Source: Pseudomonadota bacterium (GTDB lineage: Bacteria > Pseudomonadota > Gammaproteobacteria > Xanthomonadales > Xanthomonadaceae). Taken from it: a DNA stretch of 64,000 nt. Each line of letters opens with the position of its first letter. Position 1 is the stretch's first letter. Position numbers and translations under genes: made by a program. The stretch spans positions 35,044 to 99,043 of the forward strand of contig JAFEBW010000050.1 in NCBI GenBank assembly GCA_018242445.1, in the 5' to 3' direction. The notes beneath the pieces were generated by a model. That model was not told the DNA's origin. It ran no database searches and saw only the letters and a program-made list of their open reading frames with translations. This document shows positions 3,345-26,675 of this stretch, piece by piece.

Positions 3345-3350
3345 GGGGCC

Positions 3351-3470
3351 GGGAATCGGGAATGGGGAATGGGGAATCGGAAAGACAGGCAGTGGGAATC
3401 GGCGGGATCCGGCGGTGGGAGTACTCGCTTCGGCTTCTACGATTCCCGATTCCCGATTCCCGATTCCCGG
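3351..3470. repeat. inverted arrays of tandem heptamers, (GGGAATC/G)x4 facing (GATTCCC)x4 with a roughly 60-nt loop, at the trpG/trpD junction
   Basis: Read directly. GGGAATC GGGAATG GGGAATG GGGAATC lies at 3351-3378 and GATTCCC x4 at 3441-3468. An extra GGGAATC lies in the loop at 3394-3400. Confidence 0.9.
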
Positions 3471-4045
3471 CCTTCAAGAAAATTCCCCAACAGCGCATGC
3501 CCGTGCTGGGTCAGGATCGACTCGGGATGGAACTGCACGCCCTCGATGCGCAGCTCGCGGTGGCGCAGGCCCATGATGGCCTCGATCTCGCCGTCGCCAT
3601 CCTGCGTCCACGCGGTGACCTCGAGGCAATCGGGCAGCGACTCGCGCTCGACCACCAGCGAGTGATAGCGCGTGGCCTCGAAGGGCGCTGGCAGGCCGGC
3701 GAACACGCCCTTGCCATCGTGGTGCACCGGCGAGGTCTTGCCGTGCATGATGTTCCCGGCACGCACCACCCTGCCGCCGAAGGCCTGCCCCAGCGACTGG
3801 TGGCCGAGGCACACGCCGAGGATCGGGATGCGCCCACCGAGTTGCGTGAGCACATCCAGCGACACCCCGGCATCGTCGGGTGTGCCCGGCCCGGGCGAGA
3901 TCACGATGTGCGATGGCGCGAGCGCCTCGATGCCGGCCACGTCCAGCGCATCGTTGCGCACCACCCGCACCTCCTGCCCCAGCTCGCCGAAGTACTGCAC
4001 GAGGTTGTAGGTGAAGGAGTCGTAGTTGTCGATCATCAGCAGCAT
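3437..4045 (-). CDS. trpG: anthranilate synthase component II (glutamine amidotransferase)
   Basis: [19 protein letters not shown]...GVCLGHQ...HGK...QFHPES is the class-I GATase triad region. The last 10 codons ([10 protein letters not shown]) are encoded by the heptamer array. Confidence 0.95.
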
Positions 4046-4327: not shown

Positions 4328-4537
4328 ATGACCGCAAGCGACGGAGACATCCTCACGCTCGATGAGGTGGCCGCCTATTTGAAGGCCGGCAAGCGCACGG
4401 TGTACCGGTTCGCGCAAAACGGCGAACTCCCCGCCTTCAAGCTCGGCGGCACCTGGCGGTTCCGTCGCTCCGAGCTCGAGCGCTGGATCGACGCCAACAG
4501 CAACCAGCACAAATCGACAGGCAAGGGACGCCGCTGA
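4328..4537 (+). CDS. small helix-turn-helix DNA-binding protein (excisionase/MerR-like HTH)
   Basis: [46 protein letters not shown] is the typical excisionase-family HTH. The stop overlaps the helicase ATG (TGATG). Confidence 0.8.
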
Positions 4538-7500
4538 TGGAACTCCTCGACAACATCAGCCACCTGTTCGGCGACGATCTCAAGCAGGCGCTCACGTCCG
4601 GGGCCAAGCTCAAGGTCGCCGCCTCCTGCTTCTCGATGTACGCCTACGAGGCGTTGAAAGCCGAGCTGGAGCAGATCGACGAACTGCAGTTCATCTTCAC
4701 CGCACCCACGTTCGTTGCCGACGAAGTCACCGACCAGGTGAAACGCGAACGGCGCGAATTCCATATCCCCAAGCTGGATCGCGAGCGCAGCCTCTACGGC
4801 AGCGAGTTCGAGATACAACTGCGCAACAAACTCACCCAGCGCGCCATCGCCCGCGAGTGCGCCGACTGGCTGCGGCGCAAGGCGAAGTTCCGCAGCAACC
4901 GCAGCAAGGCCCCCATGCAGCAGTTTGCCGGCGTCCAGGACGCTGCAACGGCAACGGCATACATGCCACTGCACGGCTTCACCGCGGTTGATCTTGGCTA
5001 CCAGCAAGGCAACGCCGTCTCCAACTTCGTCAACAAGATCGGCGAGCCCACCTACGCCACGCAGTACCTGAACCTGTTCGAGCAGATCTGGAACGACGCG
5101 GAGAAGCTTGAAGACGTCACGGCGCAAATCTGCCAGCACATCGCTTCCGTGTACCAGGAGAACGCACCGGAGAGCGTCTACTTCCTGATGCTCTACAACA
5201 TCTTCAACGAGTTCTTGGGCGACCTCGACGAAGACGTGCTGCCCAACGACCGCACGGGCTACCAGGACACGCTGGTCTGGAACAAGCTCTTCAACTACCA
5301 GCGTGATGCCGCCACCGGCATCATCAACAAGCTGGAGACCTACAGCGGCTGCATCCTCGCCGACAGCGTGGGCCTGGGAAAAACCTTCACGGCGCTGGCC
5401 GTCATCAAGTATTACGAGCTGCGCAACAAGTCGGTGCTTGTGCTCTGCCCCAAGAAGCTGGCGGACAACTGGCTCAACTACAACCGTAACCTGAAGACCA
5501 ACCTGTTCGCCAAGGATCGTTTCAGCTACGACGTGCTTTGCCACACCGATCTGAGCCGCACCAGCGGCGAATCCTTCGGCACCCCACTCAACCGCATCAA
5601 CTGGGGCAACTACGACCTGGTGGTGATCGACGAGTCGCACAACTTCCGAAACAACGATGCCGTGAAGGAGCGCGAGACCCGCTACCAGAAGTTGATGCGC
5701 AAGGTGATTCGCGAGGGCGTCAAGACCAAGGTGCTGATGCTCTCGGCTACGCCGGTCAACAACCGCTTCAACGACCTGCGTAACCAGCTTGCATTGGCCT
5801 ACGAAGGCGACTCGGAGAACCTCAACAAGAAGCTTCGCACCAGCAAGTCGGTCGAAGAGGTGTTCCGCAACGCGCAGCGGGCTTTCAACACCTGGTCGCA
5901 GCTGCCACCGGAGCAGCGCACGCCGCGCGCCATCCTCGACGCGCTGGACTTCGATTTCTTCGAGCTCTTGGACAGCGTCACCATCGCGCGCTCGCGCAAG
6001 CACATCCAGACGTTCTACGACACCCGCGACATCGGCCCTTTCCCGGAGCGCCGCAAGCCACTGTCGTTCCACTGCCCGCTGACCACGCGGGTGGATGTCA
6101 TGAGCTTCAACGACATTTTCGAGCAGCTCGCCAAGCTCAACCTCGCGATCTACGCGCCGCTCAGCTACATCCTTCCCAGCCGCATCAAGAAGTACGAGGA
6201 CATGTACGACACCCAGGTATCGGGTGGCGGCGGCGCGTTGCGCCAGATAGACCGCGAACAAAGCCTGAAGAAGCTGCTCACCGTCAACCTGCTCAAACGC
6301 CTGGAAAGCTCGGTCGCCGCCTTCCGGCTGACCTTGAAGATGTTGCAAGGCAACCACCAGCACACACTCGGCAAGGTCGAAGCATTCGGAACAAGCGGCG
6401 GCAAAGGCAGCATCACCGACCACACGGCGGCACTCGACAGCCTGGACGCGGAAGACGACGACTGGCTGGACGCCGACGGCAGCGACTTCAACGTAGGCGG
6501 CAAGATCAAGATCGACCTGGCCGACATGGATTTGCCGCGCTGGCAGTTCGACCTTGAGCGCGACCGCGATGTGATCGCCACGCTCTTCGCGGAGATGGAG
6601 AAGATCACGCCAGCGGATGACACCAAGCTCCAGCATCTGAAAGCACTTGTGCAGGGAAAGATCGCCCAGCCGATCAACCCCGGCAACAAGAAGGTGTTGA
6701 TCTTCACCGCCTTCGCCGACACCGCCGACTACCTCTACGCCAACCTGGCACCCGAGCTATGGGCCAACCATGGCCTGCACAGTGCCGAGGTGACTGGCAG
6801 CACGCGACCCAAGTCCACCCTTGCCACGAAGTACGACTTCCAGGAACTGCTGACGTTGTTCTCGCCACGGGCCAAGGAAAAAGCCGTGGTATTGCCGCAA
6901 GAGCCGGCAGAAATCGACCTGCTCATCGGCACGGACTGCATCTCCGAAGGCCAGAACCTGCAGGACTGCGACTACCTGGTCAACTACGACATCCACTGGA
7001 ACCCGGTGCGCATCATCCAGCGCTTCGGCCGCATCGACCGCATCGGCTCGCCAAACGCCAGCATCCAATTGGTGAACTACTGGCCCGACATCTCGCTGGA
7101 CGAATACATCAACCTCAAGGAACGCGTCGAAAGCCGCATGACCATCGTCGACGTCACCGCCACCGGCGACGACAACGTGCTCTCGGCCCAGGCCAACGAC
7201 GTCGCCTATCGCAAGGAACAACTGCGGCGCCTGCAGGAAGAAGTGATCGAACTCGAAGACCTCAAGGCCGGCGTGTCGATCACCGACCTTGGCCTCAACG
7301 ACTTCCGCATGGATTTGCTGAACTACGTGAAGGCACATGGCGAGCTGAAGAGTGCCCCGAACGGCCTGCATGCCGTGGTACCTGCCAACACCCAGCTTGG
7401 CTTGCCGCCCGGCGTGCTCTTCACCCTGCGCAATCGCAATGCGGGTATCAACCCGGAAGCCAACCAACCCCACCACAACCGCCTGCACCCGTACTACCTG

Positions 7501-7830
7501 ATCTATATCGGGCGCGACGGTAACGTCGTCCACGACCAGACCGAAGTGAAGCGTTTGCTCGACCTGGCTCGCACTGCCTGCAAGGGGAAGAGCGAGCCTT
7601 GCCTCCCGCTGTGCGAGCAGTTCAACCGCGAGACGTCAGACGGCCGCAACATGCAGGCCTACTCGGATCTGCTGGGCAAGGCCATCCGCTCGATGATCGA
7701 CGTCAAGGAAGAGCGCGACATCGACAGCCTGTTCTCGGGCGGCAAGACCACGGCGCTGACCCAGACCATCGCCGGGCTGGACGACTTCGAGCTGATTGCC
7801 TTCCTCGTAATAGTGAGTGGTGAAAAGTGA
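4537..7830 (+). CDS. SNF2-family helicase with an N-terminal extension of about 270 aa (PLD-like architecture suspected, no HxK motif seen)
   Basis: Helicase motifs are ADSVGLGKT (I), [10 protein letters not shown] (II), MLSATPVNN (III) and [39 protein letters not shown] (V/VI). The stop TGA at 7828-7830 lies inside the heptamer arm. Confidence 0.9.
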
Positions 7831-8241
7831 AGAGTGAGATGGTGAGCGACATCAGGGAGCGGACGTTTGGTTTTGCCACGCGGGTGGTGAGGCTGTGCCA
7901 AAAGCTGGATGCCGCACCGGGAGTATCGCGGACGGTGGCAAACCAGTTGTTGCGTTCGGGCGCCTCCATCGGAGCCAACGTGGAAGAGGCGCATGGCAGT
8001 CAGAGCAAGGCCGATTTCACCGCAAAAATGTACATCGCCTGCAAGGAGTCCCGCGAAACGCACTACTGGCTGCGCCTGCTGGTCGCCACAGACATCGTCC
8101 CAGAAGCCAAGCTCGCCCCGTTACTCGACGAGTCCAATCAGCTCATCGCCATCCTGACCGCGATCGTGAAGACCGCCCGAAATGGTCGCGCCCCTCATGC
8201 CTGACCATTTCACTTCTCACCCTTCACTCTTCACTTTTCCC
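7809..8241 (+). mobile_element. cassette made of a purine-rich heptamer arm, a four-helix-bundle gene and a pyrimidine-rich heptamer arm, inserted at the helicase/DUF4391 junction
   Basis: The left arm is AATAGTGAGTGGTGAAAAGTGAAGAGTGAGATGGTGAG (7809-7846). The right arm is CCATTTCACTTCTCACCCTTCACTCTTCACTTTTCCC (8205-8241) and is its approximate reverse complement. The mobile nature is inferred. Confidence 0.5.
7839..8204 (+). CDS. four-helix-bundle protein (23S rRNA intervening-sequence protein family)
   Basis: ANQLLRSGASIGANVEEAHGSQSKADFTAKMYIACKESRETHYWLRLL matches the family core (xQLxRSxxSIxANIxEGxxxxSxxDFxxxLxIAxxSxxEtxyWL). The ATG at 7839 is preferred to the GTG at 7827. Confidence 0.85.
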   Translation: MVSDIRERTFGFATRVVRLCQKLDAAPGVSRTVANQLLRSGASIGANVEEAHGSQSKADFTAKMYIACKESRETHYWLRLLVATDIVPEAKLAPLLDESNQLIAILTAIVKTARNGRAPHA

Positions 8242-8880
8242 AAAAGCTCCGCTTTTGGGAAAGTTCTGCCCAAGGCCAAGCTTTACGAGCACGGCAGTGT
8301 CGGAACGCGCCTCAAAGGCCTCTTCACCGAGCAGGTCGAACAGATCGTCTGGCAGTACAAGCTGGCGCCGGAGACGATCAACCTGCCAGCATCGCCCGGC
8401 GTGCCGGAGATCCAGGTCTTCAGCGTGCGACTCCGGGCACCCGAGTTGCATCATGACGTGCTTCGCGGCATGGACAGCGCTATCGCGTTCCCGATCCTCT
8501 TCGAACTGAACTTCGAGGATCGCATCCAGGTCGTCGCTGCCTACAAGCGCCCCAGCGAGGCCGACGCTTCCCGCTGGGTACGCTCCGACTACTTCGCCTC
8601 GGAGTGGCTGCCCACAAGCAGCCCACGCAAGGCCATGCCCACCGCATTGAGCTTGGGCAATCTGTACCAGCAGGTGTTGTCGGCGCTGATCGCCCTACCT
8701 GCCCGGCCAAGCGAGTCTCTGCCCGCATTGGTCGAACGCGCCAGCCAGGTGCAGGCGCTCCGCCATGAGCTGCACAAGGTCGTCTCAAGGCTTGAGAAGG
8801 AAAAGCAGTTCAATCGCAGGGTAGAGATCAATGCGTCGGTGCGAGAGTTGAAGCACAACCTGAAATTGCTGGAGGGATAG
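8197..8880 (+). CDS. DUF4391 domain protein
   Basis: The N-terminus is [19 protein letters not shown]. The length of about 228 aa and the position next to an SNF2 helicase and a methyltransferase are typical of DUF4391. The start is uncertain (8182 or 8197), and both candidates lie inside the cassette. Confidence 0.75.
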
Positions 8881-8882
8881 CC

Positions 8883-10292
8883 ATGCATGAAATCATCTGC
8901 CCGCACTGCCAGAAGGCGTTCAAGGTCGACGAGGCCAGCTACGTGAGCATCCTGAAGCAGGTTCGCGACAAGGAGTTCGACAAGCAGCTGCATGAGCGGT
9001 TGGAACTCGCCGAGCGAGACAAGCTCAATGCGGTTGAGCTTGCCCAAGCCAAGCTTGCTGGTGAGCTGCAGAAGGAGGCTTTGGCCAAGGATGCCGAGAT
9101 CAAGGAACTGAAGGCCAGGCTGGACGCCGGTGACGCCTCGCGCAAGCTGGCCGTCACCGAGGCGTTGAGCCCGGTCGAGAAGGAGCGCAACCAGCTCGCC
9201 AACGAACTGGCGCAAGCCAAGCGTGACCTGGAGTCTGCGGCCAAGCTGGCCGAAGCAACGCGAGCAAACGCCGTTCAGACAGCCGCCGCCGCGAAAGACG
9301 CCGAAATTCAGGCGCTGCAGGCCAAGCTCGACGCTAGTGAAGTTGCCCAACAACTTGCGGTCAACAGGGCGGTCAGCGTCGTCGAGAATGAGCGCAACGC
9401 GCTGCAGAGCGGCCTGCAGCGTGCCGAGCTTGAAAAGGACCTGGCCGAGAAGTCCCTGAAGGAAAAGTACGAAACCCAGCTCAAGGATCGTGAGGAGACC
9501 ATTGAGCGCCTCAAGGACATGAAAGCCAAGCTGTCGACCAAGATGATCGGCGAGAGCCTTGAGCAGCACTGCGAGACCGAGTTCAACCGCATCCGCGCCA
9601 CCGCGTTCCCACACGCCTACTTCGAGAAGGACAACGACGCGCGCAGCGGCAGCAAGGGCGACTTCATCTTCCGCGACCAAGCCGAAGACGGCACCGAGAT
9701 CGTCTCCATCATGTTCGAGATGAAGAACGAGAACGACGAGACCGCCAGCAAGAAGAAGAACGAAGACTTCCTGAAAGAGCTCGACAAGGATCGCGCGGAA
9801 AAAGGCTGCGAGTACGCCGTGCTGGTTTCCCTGCTGGAGCCGGAGAGCGAGCTTTACAACACCGGCATCGTCGACGTGTTCCACCGCTACCCGAAGATGT
9901 ACGTCGTGCGGCCGCAGTTCTTCATCCCCATCATCACGCTGCTGCGCAATGCGGCCACCAAAGCCTTGGCCTACAGGCAGGAACTCGCGCTGGTTCGGGC
10001 ACAGAATCTCGACATCACGCGATTCGAGAAGCAGCTGGACGAGTTCAAGGGGGCGTTCGGCAGGAACTGGCGGCTTGCCTCCGACGGCTTCGAGGAGGCC
10101 GTCAAGCGGATCGACGAAGCCATCAAGGATCTGGAGAGGACCAAGGACGCCCTCCACAAATCTGCGAACAATCTGCGGCTTGCGAACGACAAGGCTGAAG
10201 ATCTGACGATCAAGAAATTGACCCGGGGCAACCCGACGATGGCGGCGAAGTTCGCCGAACTGAAAGACCACGATGCTTCCGGCGAAGCATGA
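8883..10292 (+). CDS. DUF2130 protein (N-terminal CxxC, long coiled coil, C-terminal PD-(D/E)xK-like motif)
   Basis: It has the [18 protein letters not shown]-terminus, about 200 aa of Ala/Glu/Lys/Gln-rich heptad-like sequence, and then GDFIF...x15...FEMK. Confidence 0.75.
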
Positions 10293-10309
10293 ACCCAAGG
10301 AAGCACACG

Positions 10310-12250
10310 ATGGACAAGTTGAAGATGCACTCGCCTGACCTCAGCCAGGACAACCTCGCGCGGCTACGCGAGATGTTTCCGGGCTGCGTGACGGAAGCAA
10401 GAGTGAAGGGTGAAGAGGGAAAAGTGAAATATGCGGTGGACTTCGACCTGCTGCGGCAGGAGCTGTCCGGGTTGCTGGTGGAGGGGCCGCAGGAGCGCTA
10501 CCAGCTCGACTGGCCGGGCAAGCGCGAAGCGCTGCTGACGGCCAATGCGCCGATTGCCAAGACCTTGCGCCCGGTGCGCGACGAAAGCGTGGACTTCGAC
10601 ACCACCAAGAACCTGTTCATCGAAGGCGACAACCTGGAGGCGCTCAAGCTGCTGCAGGAGACGTATCTGGGCAAGGTGAAGCTGATCTATATCGACCCGC
10701 CGTATAACACCGGCCGAGACTTCGTTTACGACGATGACTTTGCCGAGGATGCAGAGTCGTTCCTTGTGAAGTCGCTCCAGCAAAGCACGACGGGCGAAAA
10801 GCTTGTGGCAAACCCGGAGTCGAATGGCAGGTTTCACTCCGACTGGCTTTCCATGATGTATGCACGAACGCGTCTAGCAAAAAGTCTCCTGACCGACGAT
10901 GGAATTTTTCTCGCTTCGATTGACGATGGCGAGGTATCTAACCTACGGAAGGTCTGCGATGAGATTTTCGGTGAAGAGCAATTTGCTGCTCAGATCATCT
11001 GGAAAAAGCGCAATACACCGCCAAACGACAAGATCATCGGTGCCCAGCACGACTACATCTTGCTTTATGTAAAGAATGGCCTCTCTGGAATTAACCTCCG
11101 GCCAAGATCGCAGGATCAGATAGACCGTTACAAGAATCCAGACAATCACCCCAAAGGGCCATGGGTCGCCGGCGACCTCACCGGCAACGTGAAGGGCGGA
11201 CGTTACTCAGCCGCGCTGCATTACCCAATTAAAAACCCGAATACAGGGGAGCAATTCTATCCAGCCAATAACGGGAACTGGCGATTTAATAAAGAGAAAA
11301 TTGAGCAACTTATCTCCGAAGACGCAATTTATTTCGGAAAGGATGGCAAACAAGCCCCGAAACTTAAGCGCTTTCTCTCCGACGTGAAGGATGGCACTAC
11401 ATGGACATCCCTCTGGGATTTCGCACCATTCAACACATCCGGATCGAACGAGATGGGCGAAATTTTCGGCAACTCAACTCTCTTTGAGAACCCTAAGCCC
11501 GTTGGCCTACTCGAACATGTGATTGAGCTTGGTGCATCACCGGGTTCAATCGTAGTCGACTTCTTTGCTGGCACATCTACAACTGCACACGCCGTAATGA
11601 GGAAAAACGCTGAGGACAATGGCAATCGCCGCTTCATCATGGTGCAGTTGCCGGAGGCTTGCGCCAAGGATTCGGAGGCATTCAAGGCGGGCTACGCGAC
11701 AATCGCCGAGGTAAGTAAGGACCGCATCCGCCGCGCCGGTAAGAAGATCAGCGATGGCGGCTCACAGGTTGACATCGGCTTCCGCGTCCTCAAGATCGAC
11801 ACCTCCAACATGGCCGATGTGTTCTACACCCCCGACGCCGTTAGCCAAGGTGACCTGCTCAATGCAGTGGACAACATCAAGCCCGACCGCAGCGCCGAAG
11901 ACCTGCTGTTCCAGGTGATGCTGGACTGGGGCGTGGATCTTTCGCTCCCTGTCGGGCGCGAAAGAATAGTGAAGAGTGAAAATGGAATGGTGAAGTTCGA
12001 GCCGATAGCGCCAGAAGATTTCACTTCTCACTTTTCACCATTCACTCTTCTAACGGTTGACGGCAACGCCCTAATCGCCTGTTTCGACAACGCCGGCAAC
12101 ATCGACGATGCGTTAGCCAAAGAGCTGGCCAAGCGCAAGCCCCTGCGCGCGGTGTTCCGCGATGCCGGCTTCAAGGACAGCACGGTGAAGATCAACATCG
12201 AACAGATCTTCAAGCTGCTCTCGCCGGGCACCGAAGTGAAGTGCCTGTGA
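10310..12250 (+). CDS. site-specific DNA methyltransferase, Type III Mod-like (beta-class N6A/N4C order)
   Basis: MDKLKMHSPDLSQDNLARL is a Mod-type N-terminus. Motif IV IYIDPPYNTG precedes motif I VVDFFAGTSTTAHAV. The SD AAGGAAG lies 6-7 nt upstream of the ATG at 10310. Confidence 0.9.
   Translation: MDKLKMHSPDLSQDNLARLREMFPGCVTEARVKGEEGKVKYAVDFDLLRQELSGLLVEGPQERYQLDWPGKREALLTANAPIAKTLRPVRDESVDFDTTKNLFIEGDNLEALKLLQETYLGKVKLIYIDPPYNTGRDFVYDDDFAEDAESFLVKSLQQSTTGEKLVANPESNGRFHSDWLSMMYARTRLAKSLLTDDGIFLASIDDGEVSNLRKVCDEIFGEEQFAAQIIWKKRNTPPNDKIIGAQHDYILLYVKNGLSGINLRPRSQDQIDRYKNPDNHPKGPWVAGDLTGNVKGGRYSAALHYPIKNPNTGEQFYPANNGNWRFNKEKIEQLISEDAIYFGKDGKQAPKLKRFLSDVKDGTTWTSLWDFAPFNTSGSNEMGEIFGNSTLFENPKPVGLLEHVIELGASPGSIVVDFFAGTSTTAHAVMRKNAEDNGNRRFIMVQLPEACAKDSEAFKAGYATIAEVSKDRIRRAGKKISDGGSQVDIGFRVLKIDTSNMADVFYTPDAVSQGDLLNAVDNIKPDRSAEDLLFQVMLDWGVDLSLPVGRERIVKSENGMVKFEPIAPEDFTSHFSPFTLLTVDGNALIACFDNAGNIDDALAKELAKRKPLRAVFRDAGFKDSTVKINIEQIFKLLSPGTEVKCL
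11965..12052 (+). repeat. cargo-less heptamer-array hairpin inserted in frame in mod
   Basis: AATAGTGAAGAGTGAAAATGGAATGGTGAAG ... TTTCACTTCTCACTTTTCACCATTCACTCTTC. The arms are reverse-complementary and are translated as IVKSENGMVKFEPIAPEDFTSHFSPFTL. Confidence 0.8.
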
Positions 12251-12259
12251 GGGAGTGCC

Positions 12260-13924
12260 ATGGAGAAGACTGAGCTGACGCAGCTGCTGGAAAGCCTGAT
12301 CGCCACCTGGGAGAACGAGGTGGTGGAGTTCAAGCAGGCCGGCAGCGACTACAGCACCGACGACATCGGCAAGTATTTTTCCGCGCTGGCCAACGAGGCC
12401 AACTTGCGCGGGGCCGATGCCGGCTGGCTGGTGTTCGGCGTGAACAACAAGACGCGCCGCATGGTGGGCACGGACTACCGCCCGCAGGCTGCGCGGCTGC
12501 ACGCGCTCAAGATGCAGATCACCGAGAACGCCGAGCCGCGCATCAGCTTTCGCGATATCCACGAGTTGAGCCATGCCGATGGCCGCGTGCTGCTGTTCGA
12601 GATACCGGCAGCCCCACTCGGCATACCCATTGCCTGGAAGGGCCACTACTACGCCCGCGCTGGCGAAAGCCTGATCTCGCTGTCGCTGGACAAGCTGGAT
12701 GGCATCCGCCGCCAGACTCTGGCGCAGGACTGGACGGCGCAAGTCGTGCCTGGTGCGACCCTGGCCGACCTGGATGAAACCGCGCTGCGCAGGGCGCGTG
12801 AATCGTTTGCCAGCAAGTACGCGAACCGGGTTGCGCTCAGCGAAGTGCTGGGCTGGCCCATCAACACCTTCCTCGACCGGGCGCGGTTGACGCAGGACGG
12901 GCAGCTCACCCGCGCAACGCAGTTGCTGCTGGGCAAGCGCGAGTCGGCGTATCGCCTGTCGCCCCACCCCGCGCAACTGACATGGAGCCTGGTGGGCCAG
13001 GAGCGCGCCTACGAGCATTTCGGCCCGCCCTTCCTGCTGAGCACCACTCGCCTGTACCAGCGCATCCGCAACATCCAGTTGCGCATCCTGCCGCAGGACG
13101 AACTGGTGCCCGTGGAAGTGGCCAAGTACGACCAGAAGATCGTGCTGGAAGCCTTGCACAACTGCATCGCTCACCAGGACTACACGCGCCACGGCCGCGT
13201 GGTGGTGACGGAGCAACCCGACCGGCTGGTGTTCGAGAACGAGGGCGGCTTTTACGAGGGCAGCCCCGACGACTACATCACCGGCACCAAGCTTCCCCGG
13301 CGCTACCGCAACCCATTCCTCGCCCAGGCGATGGCCGAGCTGAACATGATCGACACCATGGGCTACGGCATCCACGACATGTACGTGCGCCAGGCGCGGC
13401 GCTACTTCCCGATGCCGGACTACGACCTTGGCGAAGCCGGGGCCGTGAAGATGACGATCTACGGCGGTGTGGTCGATCCGGCTTATAGCCGGTTGCTGAT
13501 CCAGCGCACCGATCTGCCGCTGGCGGACGTGCTGGCGCTGGATCGCGTGCAGAAGAAGCTGTCGATTCCAGACGAGGCCGCTGCGCGCCTACGCAAGGGC
13601 AGACTGATCGAGGGCCGCAAGCCGAACTACTTCGTGTCTGCCGAGGTGGCGACGGCCACGGACAGCAAGGTCGACTACATCCGCACGCGCCCTCAGGACG
13701 ACGAGTTCTACGCCAAGCTGCTCGTCGACTACTTGGAAAAGTTTGGCGAGGCCACGCGCACCGAGATCAACAAGCTGCTGCTGGACAAGCTCAGCGACGC
13801 GCTGGACGAGCAGCAAAAGTACAACAAGGTCAGCAATCTCCTCACCAATCTGCGCCGCCGTGGAGTTATCCGCAACGCTGGCGTCGACAGCGCGCCGCGC
13901 TGGGTACTTGCAGAGACGAATTAG
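12260..13924 (+). CDS. AlbA_2 (Schlafen-like DNA-binding) plus ATPase-like/wHTH protein, often annotated as ATP-binding protein or putative transcriptional regulator
   Basis: The N-terminus ENEVVEFKQAG...IGKYFSALANEANLRGADAGWLVFGV is typical of AlbA_2. The central NCIAHQDY...GGFYEG resembles the HATPase_c_4 region. The SD GGGAG lies upstream. Confidence 0.75.
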   Translation: MEKTELTQLLESLIATWENEVVEFKQAGSDYSTDDIGKYFSALANEANLRGADAGWLVFGVNNKTRRMVGTDYRPQAARLHALKMQITENAEPRISFRDIHELSHADGRVLLFEIPAAPLGIPIAWKGHYYARAGESLISLSLDKLDGIRRQTLAQDWTAQVVPGATLADLDETALRRARESFASKYANRVALSEVLGWPINTFLDRARLTQDGQLTRATQLLLGKRESAYRLSPHPAQLTWSLVGQERAYEHFGPPFLLSTTRLYQRIRNIQLRILPQDELVPVEVAKYDQKIVLEALHNCIAHQDYTRHGRVVVTEQPDRLVFENEGGFYEGSPDDYITGTKLPRRYRNPFLAQAMAELNMIDTMGYGIHDMYVRQARRYFPMPDYDLGEAGAVKMTIYGGVVDPAYSRLLIQRTDLPLADVLALDRVQKKLSIPDEAAARLRKGRLIEGRKPNYFVSAEVATATDSKVDYIRTRPQDDEFYAKLLVDYLEKFGEATRTEINKLLLDKLSDALDEQQKYNKVSNLLTNLRRRGVIRNAGVDSAPRWVLAETN

Positions 13925-13976
13925 TGTCGCCGCAGAGAACGTTTCAAGGAAAGCCATAACTATCAATTGCTTGCAT

Positions 13977-14003
13977 CTCTCTGCACGCCACCGATGCAGA
14001 GAG
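13977..14003 (+). other. 9-bp stem hairpin (CTCTCTGCA / TGCAGAGAG, 9-nt loop) in the only sizeable intergenic gap of the island
   Basis: Read directly. No T-run follows, so it is not a canonical terminator. Confidence 0.4.
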
Positions 14004-14031
14004 CCTGCAGAAAGAAGGCGCGTCAAAAGCC

Positions 14032-17000
14032 ATAAAGCTCAAGTTCAAGATCCAGCGTTACCAGACCGACGCCGTACAGTCCGTGGTGGATTGCTTCGAG
14101 GGCCAGCCACCAGCCAACGCCCGGGCCGTCAGCTACCGCATCGACCCCGGCAAGCTGGCCAAGGGACAGACCATCGGCAGCACGCTGAGTGCCGGCGACG
14201 GCTTCCGCAATGCCGACCTGCTGCTGACCGAGCAGGCCTTGCTGGCCAACGTGCAGAAGATGCAGCGCCACCAGAACCTGCCGATCTCCACCGCGCTGGT
14301 GAAGACCAAGATGTCGCCGGTCAATCTCGACATCGAGATGGAAACCGGCACCGGGAAGACTTATTGCTACATCAAGACCATGTTTGAGCTGAACCAGCGC
14401 TACGGCTGGAGCAAGTTCATCGTGGTGGTGCCCTCTATCGCCATCCGCGAGGGCGTGGCCAAGTCGCTGAAGATCACCGCCGACCACTTCCTGGAAACCT
14501 ACGGCAAGAAGGCCCGGTGCTTCATCTACGACTCCAAGCAGTTGCACCAGTTGGAGAGCTTCGCCTCCGACGCCGGCATCAACGTGATGGTCATCAACGT
14601 GCAGGCGTTCAACGCCGCCGGCAAGGACAACCGGCGCATCTACGAAGAGCTGGACGACTTCCAGTCGCGCAAGCCCATCGACGTCATCAGCGCCAACCGC
14701 CCCATCCTGATTCTGGACGAGCCGCAGAAGATGGAAGGCGACAAGACGCTCAAGTCGCTGGAGGCGTTCAAGGCCTTGATGGTGTTGCGCTACTCGGCCA
14801 CGCACAAGACCCGGCACAACCAGATTCACCGCCTGGACGCGCTCGACGCCTACAACCAGAAGCTGGTGAAGAAGATCGCCGTGCGCGGCATCACCATGAA
14901 GGGGCTGGCAGGCACCAACGCCTATCTCTACCTGCAGTCCATCGAGATTTCGACCAGAAAGCCGCCGGAAGCACGGCTGGAGTTCGAGCAGAAGCTGGCT
15001 GGCGGCAAGATCAAGCGCATCGTGCGCAAGCTCGGCAAGGGCGACAACCTGTTCACCCTCTCCAACGAATTGGACGAGTACCGCACCGGCTTCACGGTGG
15101 CGGACATCAATGCCAACACCGACACCTTGAGCTTCACCAACGGCGTGCAGCTCACCGTGGGCGATGCCACGGGCAACGTGAACGAATCAGCGCTGCGACG
15201 CATCCAGATTCGCGAAGCGATCAAGGCGCACTTCGACAAGGAAGAAGCCCTGTTCGCACAAGGCGTGAAGGTGCTCAGCTTGTTCTTCATCGACGAGGTG
15301 GCGAAGTACCGCGACTACTCAGCCGCCGACGAGAAAGGCGACTACGCCCGCATGTTCGAGGAGGAGTACGACGAAATAGTGAAGAGCGAATTGGGAAGAT
15401 TGAATGAGGAAAGTTCAATTCTCAATCTTCACCATTCACTCTTATATGCCGACTACCTGAAAGGCATCGCGGCGGAGAAAACCCACAGCGGCTACTTCTC
15501 CATCGACAAGAAGAGCAAGCGCCTGACCGACCCCACGGTGGCGAAACGCGGGGAGAACGCCGGGCTGTCGGACGATACCGATGCCTACGACCTGATCCTC
15601 AAGGACAAGGAGCGCCTGCTGTCGCTCGACGAACCAGTGCGCTTCATCTTTTCGCACTCGGCACTGCGCGAAGGCTGGGACAACCCCAACGTGTTCGTCA
15701 TTTGCGCGCTCAAGCACAGCGACAACACCGTCTCGCGGCGTCAGGAAGTGGGGCGCGGCTTGCGCCTTTGCGTGAACCAGCAAGGCGACCGCATGGACAA
15801 CCCGGTCACCGTGCATGACATCAACGTGCTGACCGTGGTGGCCAGCGAAAGCTACAAGGACTTCGTGGCCGGGTTGCAGGACGACATCAGCAAGTCGCTT
15901 GCCGAACGCCCACGCAAGGCCAACGAGGATTACTTCAAAGGCAAAGTGCTCAAGACCGAGCAAGGCGACGTGGACGTCACGCCAGCGATGGCGAAGCAGA
16001 TCTACAAATACCTGCTCAAAAACGACTACACCGACGATAACGACGGTATCGCCGATACCTATCACCAGGCACGCAAGGATGGTGCGCTGGCGGAGCTTCC
16101 TGCCGACTTGAAGCCCTACGCCGATCAGGTGGTCTTCCTCATCGACAGCGTCTTCAGCCAGGCGCTGCTCCCGGACATCGCCGACGGACGCAAGCCGAAG
16201 ACGAACCCGCTCAACGCCAACTTCGACAAGCAGGAATTCAAGGCGTTGTGGAACCGCATCAATCGCAAGGCGGCCTACAGCGTGCACTTCGACAGCGACG
16301 AACTGGTCGCGAAGGCCGCGGCCAAGCTCAACGACAAGGATGAAGGCTTGCGGGTCACCCCGCTGCAGTACGTCATCCAGGCCGGCACGCAGACAAAACA
16401 GGCCACCTACGACGACATCGCCGCCGGCAAGGGCTTCCGGATCACCGAGAGCGAAGTGGAGAACCACCGCGCCTCGATCCACTCGCTGGTGCGCTACGAC
16501 CTGATCGGCAAGCTGGCCGAGGGCACCCAGCTCACCCGACGCACCATCGCCGACATCCTGAAGGGCATGAACGTGGCAGTGTTCGCCCAGTTCAAGACCA
16601 ACCCGGAAAGCTTCATCGCCGAAGCCACTCGGCTCATCAACGAGCAGAAGGCCACCGTGATCGTCGAGCACCTGGCCTATGACCCGGTGGAAGAAACCTA
16701 CGACCTGGACATCTTCACCGCCAGCCAAAGCCGACAGGACTTCACGAACGCCGGCGGAAAGCTTCAGCACCACATCTACGACTACGTGGTCACCGACTCC
16801 AAGGTGGAGCGCCAGTTCGTAACCAATCTGGACACCAGCACCGACGTGGTGGTCTACGCCAAGCTACCCAGGGGCTTCCTCATCCCGACACCGGTAGGCG
16901 ACTACAACCCGGACTGGGCCATCAGCTTCAAGGAAGGCAAGGTCAAGCACATCTACTTCGTCGCCGAGACGAAAGGCTCGATGTCCAGCATGGAGCTACG

Positions 17001-17130
17001 CGAGATCGAGAAGACCAAGATCAAGTGCGCCCGCAAGTTCTTCGACGAAATGAATCACCGATACATACCCGAGAACGTCAAGTACGCGGTGGTGGATAGC
17101 TTCAGCAAGCTGATGGAGATCGTGAAGTAA
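14032..17130 (+). CDS. Type III restriction enzyme Res-like helicase-nuclease (start codon problematic)
   Basis: It has Walker [10 protein letters not shown], motif [10 protein letters not shown], and the C-terminal nuclease motif YNPDWAISF...FVAETKG (PD...ExK). The conserved N-terminus [25 protein letters not shown] is in frame from 14032, but that codon is ATA. The first standard start is the GTG at 14083. Confidence 0.85.
15375..15444 (+). repeat. cargo-less heptamer-array hairpin inserted in frame in res
   Basis: AATAGTGAAGAGCGAATTGGGAAGATTGAATGAGG ... TTCAATTCTCAATCTTCACCATTCACTCTTA, translated as [23 protein letters not shown]. Confidence 0.75.
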
Positions 17131-26553: not shown

Positions 26554-26675
26554 GGAGTGGGAAAGCGAAAAGCCTCGCGCTCCCGGATGGATTCTCACTC
26601 CCGGTATCCCTTGGTCAGATGCCTGCACGCACGCGCTTGTACCATTCCCCATTCCCCATTCCCCATTCCCGCCCC
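26532..26675. repeat. inverted arrays of tandem heptamers (GGGAATA AGGAATA GGAAATA GGGAGTG ... CCATTCC x4) at the tsaD/folB junction
   Basis: Read directly. The left arm is 26532-26566 and the right arm 26642-26675. An inner GGGAGTG/CACTCCC pair lies at 26553-26559 and 26596-26602. Confidence 0.9.

What the first reader, a model, noticed from the sequence alone, without database searches (positions are those of the whole stretch)
15375..15444. Second cargo-less heptamer hairpin inserted in frame in res
AATAGTGAAGAGCGAATTGGGAAGATTGAATGAGG faces TTCAATTCTCAATCTTCACCATTCACTCTTA and is translated as [23 protein letters not shown], between the helicase core and the C-terminal nuclease region. It has the same 5' boundary and the same reading phase as the copies in the helicase and mod genes. 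Three copies of one element family occur within 8 kb, all inside genes of one defence operon and none elsewhere in the 64 kb. This suggests either targeted insertion or selection. One possible function is RNase III-type post-transcriptional control of the toxic Res component.
Basis: seen in the sequence. Interest (0 to 1): 0.7.

Follow-up and report, generated by a model that had tools for sequence, protein, structure and literature searches.

The report
Translated heptamer hairpin inside a restriction gene
A 69-base AT-rich palindrome made of 7-base repeats sits in frame inside a restriction-enzyme gene; it is an empty copy of the hairpin element known from split ribosomal RNA genes, and such copies recur at the same few sites in related restriction-modification genes.

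Summary
Window 15376-15444 is a 69-nt hairpin of degenerate GTGAAGA heptamers (36% G+C in a 60% G+C gene), read in frame as 23 aa of a type III Res.

- It is absent from 119 of 120 listed Res homologues.
- It is not a clean insertion: it replaces 12 conserved residues (YLNEVLxLEETP), a net gain of 11 aa.
- It lies inside the helicase module, between motif IV and motifs V/VI, not between helicase and nuclease.

It is a cargo-less copy of the operon's own IVS-type element. That element is a PF05635 (S23p) gene at 7839-8204 bracketed by the same heptamer arrays, which is the architecture of the Coxiella 23S rRNA intervening sequence.

- All four arrays in the operon start in the same codon phase. 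Codon 7 is the helicase's TGA stop in the cargo copy and GGA in the three internal copies.
- The family is not defence-specific. Most copies found elsewhere are intergenic, and PF05635 neighbours are mostly housekeeping genes.
- In-frame copies nevertheless recur at fixed sites in Mod, Res and HsdS genes, with at least three different heptamer units.

The most likely reading is a tolerated selfish passenger in a permissive loop. RNase III control is untested.

The parts
15376..15444 (+). Cargo-less heptamer hairpin translated in frame in Res. Left arm about 15376-15409 (ATAGTGA AGAGCGA ATTGGGA AGATTGA ...), loop about 15410-15414, right arm about 15415-15444. The in-frame GGA (where the consensus unit would give TGA) is at 15394-15396.
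14083..17130 (+). Type III restriction subunit Res (ResIII/DEAD helicase plus RE_endonuc). The ORF as listed starts at GTG 14083.
14032..14034 (+). ATA at the position where the two aligned Res homologues (L001, L002) have the ATG start codon.
11966..12052 (+). Cargo-less heptamer hairpin in frame in Mod (site 2, 29 codons IVKSENGMVKFEPIAPEDFTSHFSPFTLL). It replaces the native IQGK-turn region.
10400..10432 (+). Solo left-arm heptamer array in frame in Mod (site 1, RVKGEEGKVKY). It has no partner arm and no fold.
10289..12250 (+). Type III methyltransferase Mod (N6_N4_Mtase).
7810..7838 (+). Left heptamer arm of the cargo-bearing element. It encodes the last 7 codons of the helicase and its stop (ATA GTG AGT GGT GAA AAG TGA, stop at 7828-7830).
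7839..8204 (+). PF05635 gene (23S rRNA intervening-sequence protein, also called S23p or four-helix-bundle protein), 121 aa from ATG 7839.
8205..8241 (+). Right heptamer arm (TTCACTTCTCACCCTTCACTCTTCACTTTTCC). It encodes the first residues of DUF4391 if that gene starts at ATG 8197.
4537..7830 (+). SNF2-family helicase, first gene of the operon after the HTH_17 gene at 4328-4537.
8197..8880 (+). DUF4391 gene.

Best explanation
The segment is a non-autonomous ('empty') copy of an IVS-type heptamer palindrome. The full element is a PF05635 (S23p) gene between two inverted arrays of 7-nt repeats. One lies 7.5 kb upstream in the same operon.

The res copy was most likely seeded from that local element. 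The process left no target-site duplication and overwrote 12 native codons. That points to recombination, gene conversion or template switching rather than cut-and-paste transposition (inferred).

The copy survives because it lies in a variable, probably surface-exposed stretch of the helicase module, and because it is readable. A GTGAAGA array has a TGA in frame every third unit, and here that codon is GGA.

On this reading it is mainly a tolerated selfish passenger that adds 11 residues to Res. Any effect of the mRNA hairpin or of its rare codons on Res output is a by-product.

Shown: identity, family membership, derived state, open frame, recurrence elsewhere. Inferred: source copy, mode of insertion, neutrality.
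For: - Same unit, same ATAGTGA boundary and same codon phase in all four arrays of the operon. Codon 7 is TGA (the helicase stop) in the cargo copy and GGA in the three internal copies.
- PF05635 is identified.
- PF05635 genes in 73 genome loci were examined. In most of the 49 whose flanks I printed, the gene sits between inverted short-repeat arrays (mostly 7-nt units) whose unit differs by lineage.
- The Coxiella 23S IVS has the same build: an S23p ORF, tandem heptamers and a terminal stem (PMC4990558).
- In L143 (36% G+C) the local PF05635 element and the in-frame Mod hairpin share a different unit, GGATGAA.
- The res segment is absent from 119 of 120 Res homologues.
- No direct repeat flanks the element, and native codons are missing.
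- Outside the element, the window branch of Res has 53 synonymous and 15 non-synonymous changes, so the gene stayed under constraint.
- The homologous copy in L003 has a decayed stem (z = -1.3), as expected without selection on structure.
Against: - Hairpins at the same Mod and Res sites arose with at least three different heptamer units. This is more recurrence than a simple neutral model predicts and could mean site-specific homing.
- In L064, L070 and the window, the T-to-G change that removes the stop is matched by a pairing change on the other arm. That hints at selection, or a copying mechanism, that preserves the stem.
- Contigs L139-L142 carry in-frame hairpins with no PF05635 gene in the available DNA.
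- The permissive-loop claim rests on a sequence alignment to EcoP15I only. The structure model failed (pLDDT 37).
- The Res start codon is ATA, so present-day function of Res is not assured.
Confidence: 0.55

Rival explanations
1. The hairpin is a post-transcriptional control element. In the res mRNA the roughly 22-bp imperfect stem is cut by RNase III, or it stalls ribosomes through structure and rare codons. Either would lower or delay synthesis of the toxic Res subunit relative to Mod.
For: - rRNA IVS stems built of heptamers are cut by RNase III (PMC4990558).
- Correia hairpins in mRNAs are cut or bound by RNase III (PMC2649163; PMC10969869).
- The stem is significant on the sense strand (z = -3.9).
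- A rough codon-adaptation index against host ORFs is 0.31 for the element and 0.79 for Res as a whole.
- Pairing-preserving changes accompany the stop-removing change.
Against: - No transcript data exist.
- Cleavage inside a coding region would destroy the message rather than tune it.
- Coupled translation should keep the stem open.
- The homologous hairpin in L003 is decayed (z = -1.3).
- 119 of 120 homologous Res genes manage without it.
- There is no terminator-like tail and no Rfam family hit.
Confidence: 0.17
2. The elements home to specific sites. An unknown machinery, possibly involving the PF05635 protein, recognises features of these Mod, Res and HsdS sites or of earlier remnants there, and replaces the local sequence. 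On this reading the clustering in restriction-modification genes reflects targeting rather than tolerance.
For: - One Res site is occupied in two alleles that are only 76% identical, with no extended conversion tract around it.
- Mod site 2 is occupied in the window, in the L004-6 contigs, and in P0318, P0327, P0343 and P0328/P0349. The insertions are in the same QGK-turn region, with boundaries differing by up to about 4 codons, and use three different units.
- Mod site 1 is occupied in three lineages.
- Within the 73 PF05635 loci, the complete intragenic hairpins I confirmed all lie in restriction-modification genes: a Mod-like methyltransferase in L059, a Mod-like methyltransferase in L064, and HsdS in L070.
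- Native sequence is replaced rather than interrupted.
Against: - The occupied places are turns between conserved strands or helices, exactly where a selection filter would leave survivors.
- Cargo-bearing elements sit next to all kinds of genes.
- An in-frame copy also occurs in a sensor kinase (L023).
- The loci were gathered through Res, Mod and PF05635 queries, so the sample is biased.
- No recombinase or target motif was found.
Confidence: 0.2
3. The inserted peptide is adaptive at the protein level. It might alter Res-Mod contacts or translocation, or it might remove a surface recognised by a phage anti-restriction protein.
For: - The element replaces a conserved helix-like motif (YLNEVLxLEETP) with a sequence that keeps a hydrophobic/Leu-Gly pattern.
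- Res stays under purifying selection.
- In HsdS the hairpin lies just after the first target-recognition domain. From general knowledge of type I enzymes, not tested here, spacer length there sets specificity.
Against: - The peptides are simply what the heptamers encode (KSE.GR ... SPFTL) in unrelated host proteins.
- The insertion is rare among homologues (1 of 120).
- There are no functional data and no usable structure model.
Confidence: 0.08
4. It is a phase-variation tract. Slippage by one 7-nt unit would shift the frame and switch Res on and off, as simple repeats do in phase-variable restriction-modification genes.
For: - A 7-nt unit is not a multiple of three.
- Restriction-modification genes are classic hosts of contingency repeats (general knowledge).
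- A perfect (AGCAGCG)x5 tract exists in the Mod gene of L139.
Against: - No two adjacent heptamers in the res copy are identical (AGTGAAG AGCGAAT TGGGAAG ATTGAAT), so slippage should be rare.
- The arrays come as inverted pairs, which slippage models do not need.
Confidence: 0.03

Closest known systems
23S rRNA intervening sequences carrying an S23p ORF (Coxiella, Leptospira)
   Same: - A PF05635/S23p gene.
- A terminal inverted repeat forming a long stem.
- A stem region that contains tandem heptamers whose number varies.
- The rRNA stems are RNase III substrates (PMC4990558).
- The cargo copy at 7810-8241 has this build.
   Different: - Here the element sits in a protein-coding operon, not in helix 25/45 of 23S rRNA. 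The window has no Rfam hit at all.
- The res copy has no ORF of its own.
- It is translated as part of the host protein.
- Excision at the RNA level would break the mRNA rather than yield a working product.
Rickettsia palindromic elements (RPE)
   Same: Short palindromic repeats inserted in frame into unrelated protein-coding genes and translated as extra peptide segments that the proteins tolerate (PMC10969869).
   Different: - Different sequence family and host.
- RPEs are about 150 bp, are not built of heptamers, and have no associated protein-coding master copy.
- Here native codons are replaced, and the hosts found so far are mostly restriction-modification genes.
GGGAATC-type heptamer repeats of xanthomonads and heptamer repeats of Nostoc (Rehm et al. 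2015)
   Same: - Tandem 7-nt units.
- Often found as convergent inverted pairs able to form stem-loops, close to or overlapping gene ends (PMC4692102).
- The host's own copies are at 3347-3472 and 26643-26670.
   Different: - The unit is GTGAAGA, with no four G-tracts, so no quadruplex.
- The published repeats are under-represented in coding sequence and were not linked to PF05635 genes.
- This copy is inside an ORF.
Correia repeat enclosed elements and other bacterial MITEs
   Same: Small, non-autonomous inverted-repeat elements that are co-transcribed with genes. Correia hairpins are cleaved or bound by RNase III and change expression (PMC2649163; PMC10969869).
   Different: - No target-site duplication.
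- No related transposase-bearing IS.
- Arms made of heptamer arrays that differ between copies.
- Mostly studied in intergenic positions.
Avd accessory protein of diversity-generating retroelements
   Same: The cargo protein family (PF05635) is homologous to Avd (PMC10053308). Like a DGR variable region, the hairpin overwrites a short in-frame stretch of a target gene.
   Different: - No reverse transcriptase among the seven operon genes.
- No template repeat.
- The copies differ by whole heptamer variants, not by adenine-specific changes.

Membership tests
IVS-type element (S23p ORF between heptamer inverted repeats) | Carries a PF05635 (S23p) ORF | tested here: not met
   The res copy has a loop of about 5 nt and no ORF of its own. 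The sister copy at 7810-8241 does carry one (PF05635, E = 1e-19).
IVS-type element (S23p ORF between heptamer inverted repeats) | Terminal inverted repeats that form a long stem | tested here: met
   MFE -23.6 kcal/mol, z = -3.9, 0 of 200 shuffles as stable.
IVS-type element (S23p ORF between heptamer inverted repeats) | Stem built of tandem heptamers | tested here: met
   Both arms match a run of at least three heptamers. The same build is seen around PF05635 genes in most of the 49 loci whose flanks were printed and in Coxiella (PMC4990558).
IVS-type element (S23p ORF between heptamer inverted repeats) | Located in 23S rRNA (helix 25 or 45) | tested here: not met
   It lies in codons 432-454 of a Res gene. 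There is no Rfam hit in the window.
IVS-type element (S23p ORF between heptamer inverted repeats) | Excised from the transcript by RNase III | not testable with these tools
   Needs transcript end mapping with and without rnc.
MITE | Terminal inverted repeats, small size, no transposase | tested here: met
   69 nt, two arms, no ORF.
MITE | Target-site duplication flanking the element | tested here: not met
   Alignment with empty alleles L001 and L002 shows no direct repeat. Instead about 36 nt of native sequence is missing. The same holds at Mod site 2.
MITE | Parent IS with a transposase sharing the arms | tested here: not met
   The only cargo-bearing relatives found encode PF05635, not a transposase.
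Rickettsia palindromic elements | In-frame, translated palindromic insertion in a protein-coding gene | tested here: met
   The frame is open through the element and the host ORF runs 1015 codons.
Rickettsia palindromic elements | Sequence belongs to one of the RPE families | not tested
   No RPE consensus was on hand. The heptamer periodicity and a 68% G+C gammaproteobacterial-type host (nearest Res relatives are Rhodanobacter and Lysobacteraceae) make membership unlikely.
GGGNATC quadruplex-forming heptamer repeats (Rehm 2015) | Unit GGGNATC with at least 4 G-tracts | tested here: not met
   The units are AGTGAAG, AGCGAAT, TGGGAAG and ATTGAAT. The host's GGGAATC arrays lie elsewhere, at 3351-3378, 3441-3468 and 26643-26670.
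Phase-variable simple repeat in a restriction-modification gene | Run of identical tandem units long enough to slip | tested here: not met
   No two adjacent heptamers are identical in the res copy.
DGR variable region | Reverse transcriptase and template repeat nearby, with adenine-specific differences | tested here: not met
   None of the seven operon proteins is a reverse transcriptase. The copies differ at all base types. The rest of the window was not screened for reverse transcriptases.
Type III restriction subunit Res (host gene) | SF2 helicase motifs plus a C-terminal PD-(D/E)xK endonuclease, next to a type III Mod | tested here: met
   ResIII, DEAD and RE_endonuc domains. PADLOC REase_III 1089 bits and MTase_III 737 bits. 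EcoP15I Res E = 9e-76.

The most novel reading that the evidence does not exclude
IVS-type heptamer palindromes are a general, phylum-spanning class of mobile hairpins, with PF05635 as their cargo. Their empty copies home to a handful of fixed sites in type III and type I restriction-modification genes. They stay translatable through a TGA-to-GGA change that is compensated on the opposite arm. There they act as RNase III-sensitive or structure-dependent switches that set the Res:Mod balance, or they alter subunit function.
Probability: 0.15. Interest if true: 0.8.

Novelty: new variant of a known kind. Interest (0 to 1): 0.6.

Why it matters
Intervening sequences of 23S rRNA have been known for over thirty years, and their origin and mobility are still unexplained.

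These data add four points:
- The same build (an S23p gene between heptamer arrays) is common outside rRNA, in many phyla.
- The repeat unit changes by lineage.
- Empty copies can live inside open reading frames.
- In one widespread type III restriction-modification operon family, almost every rare large insertion in Mod is such a hairpin, at three fixed sites.

That links three separate literatures: rRNA IVS, unexplained bacterial heptamer repeats, and in-frame palindromes such as RPE. It also gives concrete, testable cases for how these elements move and whether their RNA stems regulate toxic genes. Finally, it marks natural insertion-tolerant sites in Mod and Res.

Tried and rejected
- **Structure of Res.** AlphaFold2 on a 22-sequence alignment gave mean pLDDT 37, which is unusable. 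Placement relies on the sequence alignment to EcoP15I.
- **Known RNA families.** Rfam at gathering thresholds found nothing in the window.
- **Terminator role.** No + strand terminator-like site lies at any hairpin.
- **Recent gene conversion from an L003-like allele.** Sliding-window identity shows no raised similarity in the flanks.
- **A large 'coding-adapted' subfamily** (AGYGAAKTGGGAAGR ... CACYCTTC). There were 0 hits in viral contigs and 8 in metagenome contigs, of which only 2 are real hairpins. Such a subfamily, if it exists, is rare.
- **Defence bias of the cargo element.** Rejected by the Pfam survey of neighbours.
- **DGR-like retrohoming and phase variation.** Both considered and set aside (see the membership tests).
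- **Source genome.** The 100%-identical PF05635 protein P0121 comes from a 128-kb MAG contig, but its locus could not be fetched. No genome-wide count in the source organism was therefore possible.
- **Chance similarity between the native 12 codons and the left arm.** About 11 of 30 bases match by eye against the alignment. I judged this inconclusive.
Full report
**1. Check of the observation**

The stretch is exactly as described. Window 15376-15444 reads ATAGTGAAGAGCGAATTGGGAAGATTGAATGAGGAAAGTTCAATTCTCAATCTTCACCATTCACTCTTA. In the frame of the 1015-codon ORF 14083-17130 it translates as [23 protein letters not shown].

- It folds into an imperfect hairpin on either strand. On the + strand the energy is -23.6 kcal/mol (z = -3.9). 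On the - strand it is -26.6 kcal/mol (z = -4.6). None of 200 shuffles folds as well in either case.
- It is 36% G+C in a 60% G+C gene, and the rest of the window is 68.5% G+C.
- The 12-mer AATAGTGAAGAG with up to 2 mismatches occurs 9 times, against 0.7 expected.
- A regex for runs of at least three GTGAAGA-like heptamers hits only between 7810 and 15442, apart from one GGGAATG array at 26646.

**2. The surroundings**

Positions 4328-17130 form a roughly 60% G+C island. Its genes, in order, are:

| Coordinates | Gene |
|---|---|
| 4328-4537 | HTH_17 |
| 4537-7830 | SNF2 helicase |
| 7839-8204 | PF05635 '23S rRNA intervening-sequence protein' |
| 8197-8880 | DUF4391 |
| 8883-10292 | DUF2130 |
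| 10289-12250 | type III Mod |
| 12260-13924 | Schlafen/AlbA_2 protein |
| 14083-17130 | type III Res |

There are four heptamer sites, not three:

- The PF05635 gene is bracketed by arms at 7810-7838 and 8205-8241.
- Mod has a solo left arm at 10400-10432. It has no partner arm and no fold.
- Mod has a full hairpin at 11966-12052 (z = -3.5).
- Res has the hairpin in question.

All four arrays begin in codon phase 0 with (A/G)TA or AGA followed by GTG.

Because 7 and 3 share no factor, a perfect GTGAAGA array puts a TGA in frame every third unit, whatever the frame. The complementary TCTTCAC arm has no stop in any frame. In these four copies the critical codon is the seventh. It is TGA in the cargo copy, where it serves as the helicase's stop codon. 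It is GGA in all three internal copies.

**3. Is it an insertion?**

Of the 120 best Res homologues (76-94% identity), 117 match one regular expression for an 18-residue stretch, xxYLNEVLxLEETPYxKY, after FEEEY. Two of the other three (P0016, P0088) carry a native-type stretch of the same length. The window has 29 residues there.

DNA alignment with the empty alleles L001 (94% identical protein) and L002 (Rhodanobacter) shows three things:

- The flanking variable residues are kept.
- The 12 conserved codons YLNEVLGLEDTP are gone.
- The 23 element codons stand in their place, a net gain of 33 nt.

No direct repeat flanks the element. The same 'overwriting' is seen at both Mod sites.

By alignment with EcoP15I Res (4ZCF chain C, E = 9e-76), the site lies between motif IV (LSLFFIDEV) and motifs V/VI ([17 protein letters not shown] ... 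QEVGRGLRL). The alignment is gapped in that region. So the site is inside the helicase module, not between helicase and nuclease. A structure model failed (mean pLDDT 37).

**4. What family is it?**

The cargo copy has the build described for the Coxiella burnetii 23S rRNA IVS. That IVS has an S23p ORF and tandem heptamers (GACAGAT) of variable number upstream of it. It also has terminal inverted repeats forming a 28-bp stem, and RNase III cuts at the first repeat (PMC4990558).

I fetched 73 genome loci encoding relatives of the window's PF05635 protein. They are mostly Verrucomicrobiota, Planctomycetota and Chlorobiota, with a few Proteobacteria. I printed the flanks of 49 of them. In most, the gene sits between inverted arrays of short repeats. 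The units are mostly 7 nt and change with lineage: GTGAAGA, GTGAATA, GCGAATA, GGCGAAT, ATGAAGG, GTAAATG, GAAAATA, AGAGATA and others.

The host's own heptamer family is GGGAATC, at 3347-3472 and 26643-26670. That family is already described for xanthomonads, including convergent pairs (PMC4692102). I found no paper linking heptamer arrays in general to PF05635 genes, or describing in-frame copies.

**5. Is the family tied to defence genes?**

As a family, no.

- A scan of viral contigs for GTGAAGAGYGAA(31-61 nt)YTCACTCTT returned 47 loci with 50 hairpins. Most come from low-G+C contigs of one sample. For 45 of the 50, no ORF of at least 150 codons spans the hairpin, and no PF05635 gene is nearby.
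- The 115 ORFs immediately next to 69 PF05635 loci hit 153 Pfam families. The commonest are housekeeping families: enolase, phosphoglycerate kinase, LpxC, FabA, carbamoyl-phosphate synthase. Only 2 hit N6_Mtase.

Within this operon family the association is strong.

- The PF05635 element sits at the helicase|DUF4391 junction in L004-L010, L058-L059, L061 and L143, always with the helicase stop inside the left arm.

In-frame empty copies recur in restriction-modification genes.

- The Res site is also occupied in L003 (P0079, 76% identical). That copy shares the odd unit ATTGGGA, yet similarity in the flanks is not raised.
- Mod site 2 is occupied in the window, in L004-6, and in P0318, P0327, P0343 and P0328/P0349.
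- Mod site 1 is occupied in the window, P0259 and P0318.
- A third Mod site is occupied in P0259.
- At least three heptamer units are involved (GTGAAGA, GGATGAA, GCAGATT). Stems reach -36 to -64 kcal/mol.
- In the alignment of 121 Mod proteins, most rare insertions of 8 aa or more outside the N-terminus are heptamer hairpins. A few (in P0260, P0338 and one in P0343) were not examined.
- Further in-frame copies lie in a second methyltransferase (L064, two copies), in a type I HsdS (L070), and, outside defence, in a hybrid sensor kinase (L023).
- In L143 the in-frame Mod hairpin uses the same GGATGAA unit as the local PF05635 element. This supports seeding from the local cargo copy.

**6. Selection**

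Outside the element, parsimony with L002 as outgroup assigns 53 synonymous and 15 non-synonymous changes to the window branch of Res. The L001 branch has 55 and 6 (Fisher p = 0.09). So Res has been under purifying selection, perhaps slightly relaxed.

Evidence on selection for the stem is mixed.

- In the window, L064 and L070, the T-to-G change that removes the stop is matched by a pairing base on the other arm.
- The homologous L003 hairpin has largely decayed (z = -1.3).

A rough codon-adaptation index against host ORFs is 0.31 for the element and 0.79 for Res. The reference set may contain some wrong-strand ORFs.

**7. Explanation**

The best-supported reading is that the segment is an empty copy of the operon's own IVS-type heptamer palindrome. 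It was placed by a recombination-like process that overwrote 12 codons. It was kept because it is readable and sits in a tolerant part of the protein. In kind, this is an RPE-like translated passenger (PMC10969869).

Rivals are:
- RNase III or structure-based control of res, by analogy with rRNA IVS and Correia elements, untested;
- true site-specific homing, which the recurrence with different units makes a serious option;
- an adaptive change of the protein;
- phase variation, which is unlikely because no adjacent units are identical.

**8. Verdict**

'Targeting or selection' for the in-frame copies remains open. The RNase III idea remains a hypothesis.

The thing is a new variant of known kinds: IVS elements and in-frame palindromes. 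The wider pattern is, as far as my literature searches show, undescribed. That pattern is heptamer arrays as the general livery of PF05635 elements, and their empty copies as the main source of large insertions at fixed sites in a type III Mod family.

Noticed in passing
window 14032-14034: At the position where the aligned Res homologues L001 and L002 have their ATG start, the window has ATA. The next start is GTG at 14083, which would drop 17 conserved N-terminal residues (MKLKFKxQxYQTxAVQ). Res may be under-expressed or N-terminally truncated here.
   Followed up: partly
window 3347-3472 and 26643-26670: These are the host's own heptamer family (GGGAATC/GGGAATG). One is a strong hairpin (z = -6.7) lying just past the 3' end of a minus-strand trpG-like GATase gene. 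Its arm encodes the last residues of that ORF as read (...[11 protein letters not shown]). The other is a solo array.
   Followed up: partly
loci L058-L130 (73 genome contigs): PF05635 genes across many phyla mostly sit between inverted short-repeat arrays (mostly 7-nt units) whose unit differs by lineage. They usually have the same orientation as neighbouring housekeeping genes. This general architecture seems undescribed beyond the Coxiella rRNA IVS.
   Followed up: partly
window 7810-8241: The cargo element is woven into its neighbours. Its left arm supplies the helicase's last 7 codons and its stop. Its right arm supplies the first residues of DUF4391, whose likely start (ATG 8197) lies in the 3' end of the PF05635 gene. 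The same arrangement occurs in L004-L010 and L143.
   Followed up: yes
L070:7031-7099: An in-frame GTGAAGA hairpin lies in a type I HsdS gene (Schlesneria MAG) directly after the first target-recognition domain, next to a PF05635 gene. From general knowledge, spacer length in this region can set recognition specificity.
   Followed up: no
L139:1728-1767: A perfect (AGCAGCG)x5 tandem heptamer tract lies inside a Mod gene that also carries a GGATGAA hairpin at site 2. It could be a phase-variation tract.
   Followed up: no
window 12260-13924: The Schlafen/AlbA_2 gene shows 52 synonymous and 44 non-synonymous changes on the window branch, against 41 and 11 on the Rhodanobacter (L002) branch. This suggests relaxed or diversifying selection.
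   Followed up: no
L141:4323-7539: In this related operon the Res reading frame is split into three called genes (61, 181 and 829 aa). No heptamer array lies at the breaks.
   Followed up: partly
window 10430-11880 versus L002: The central part of Mod (the target-recognition region) is unrelated between the window and the Rhodanobacter allele, while both ends are about 90% identical. The two heptamer sites lie in the conserved ends, outside the swapped block.
   Followed up: no
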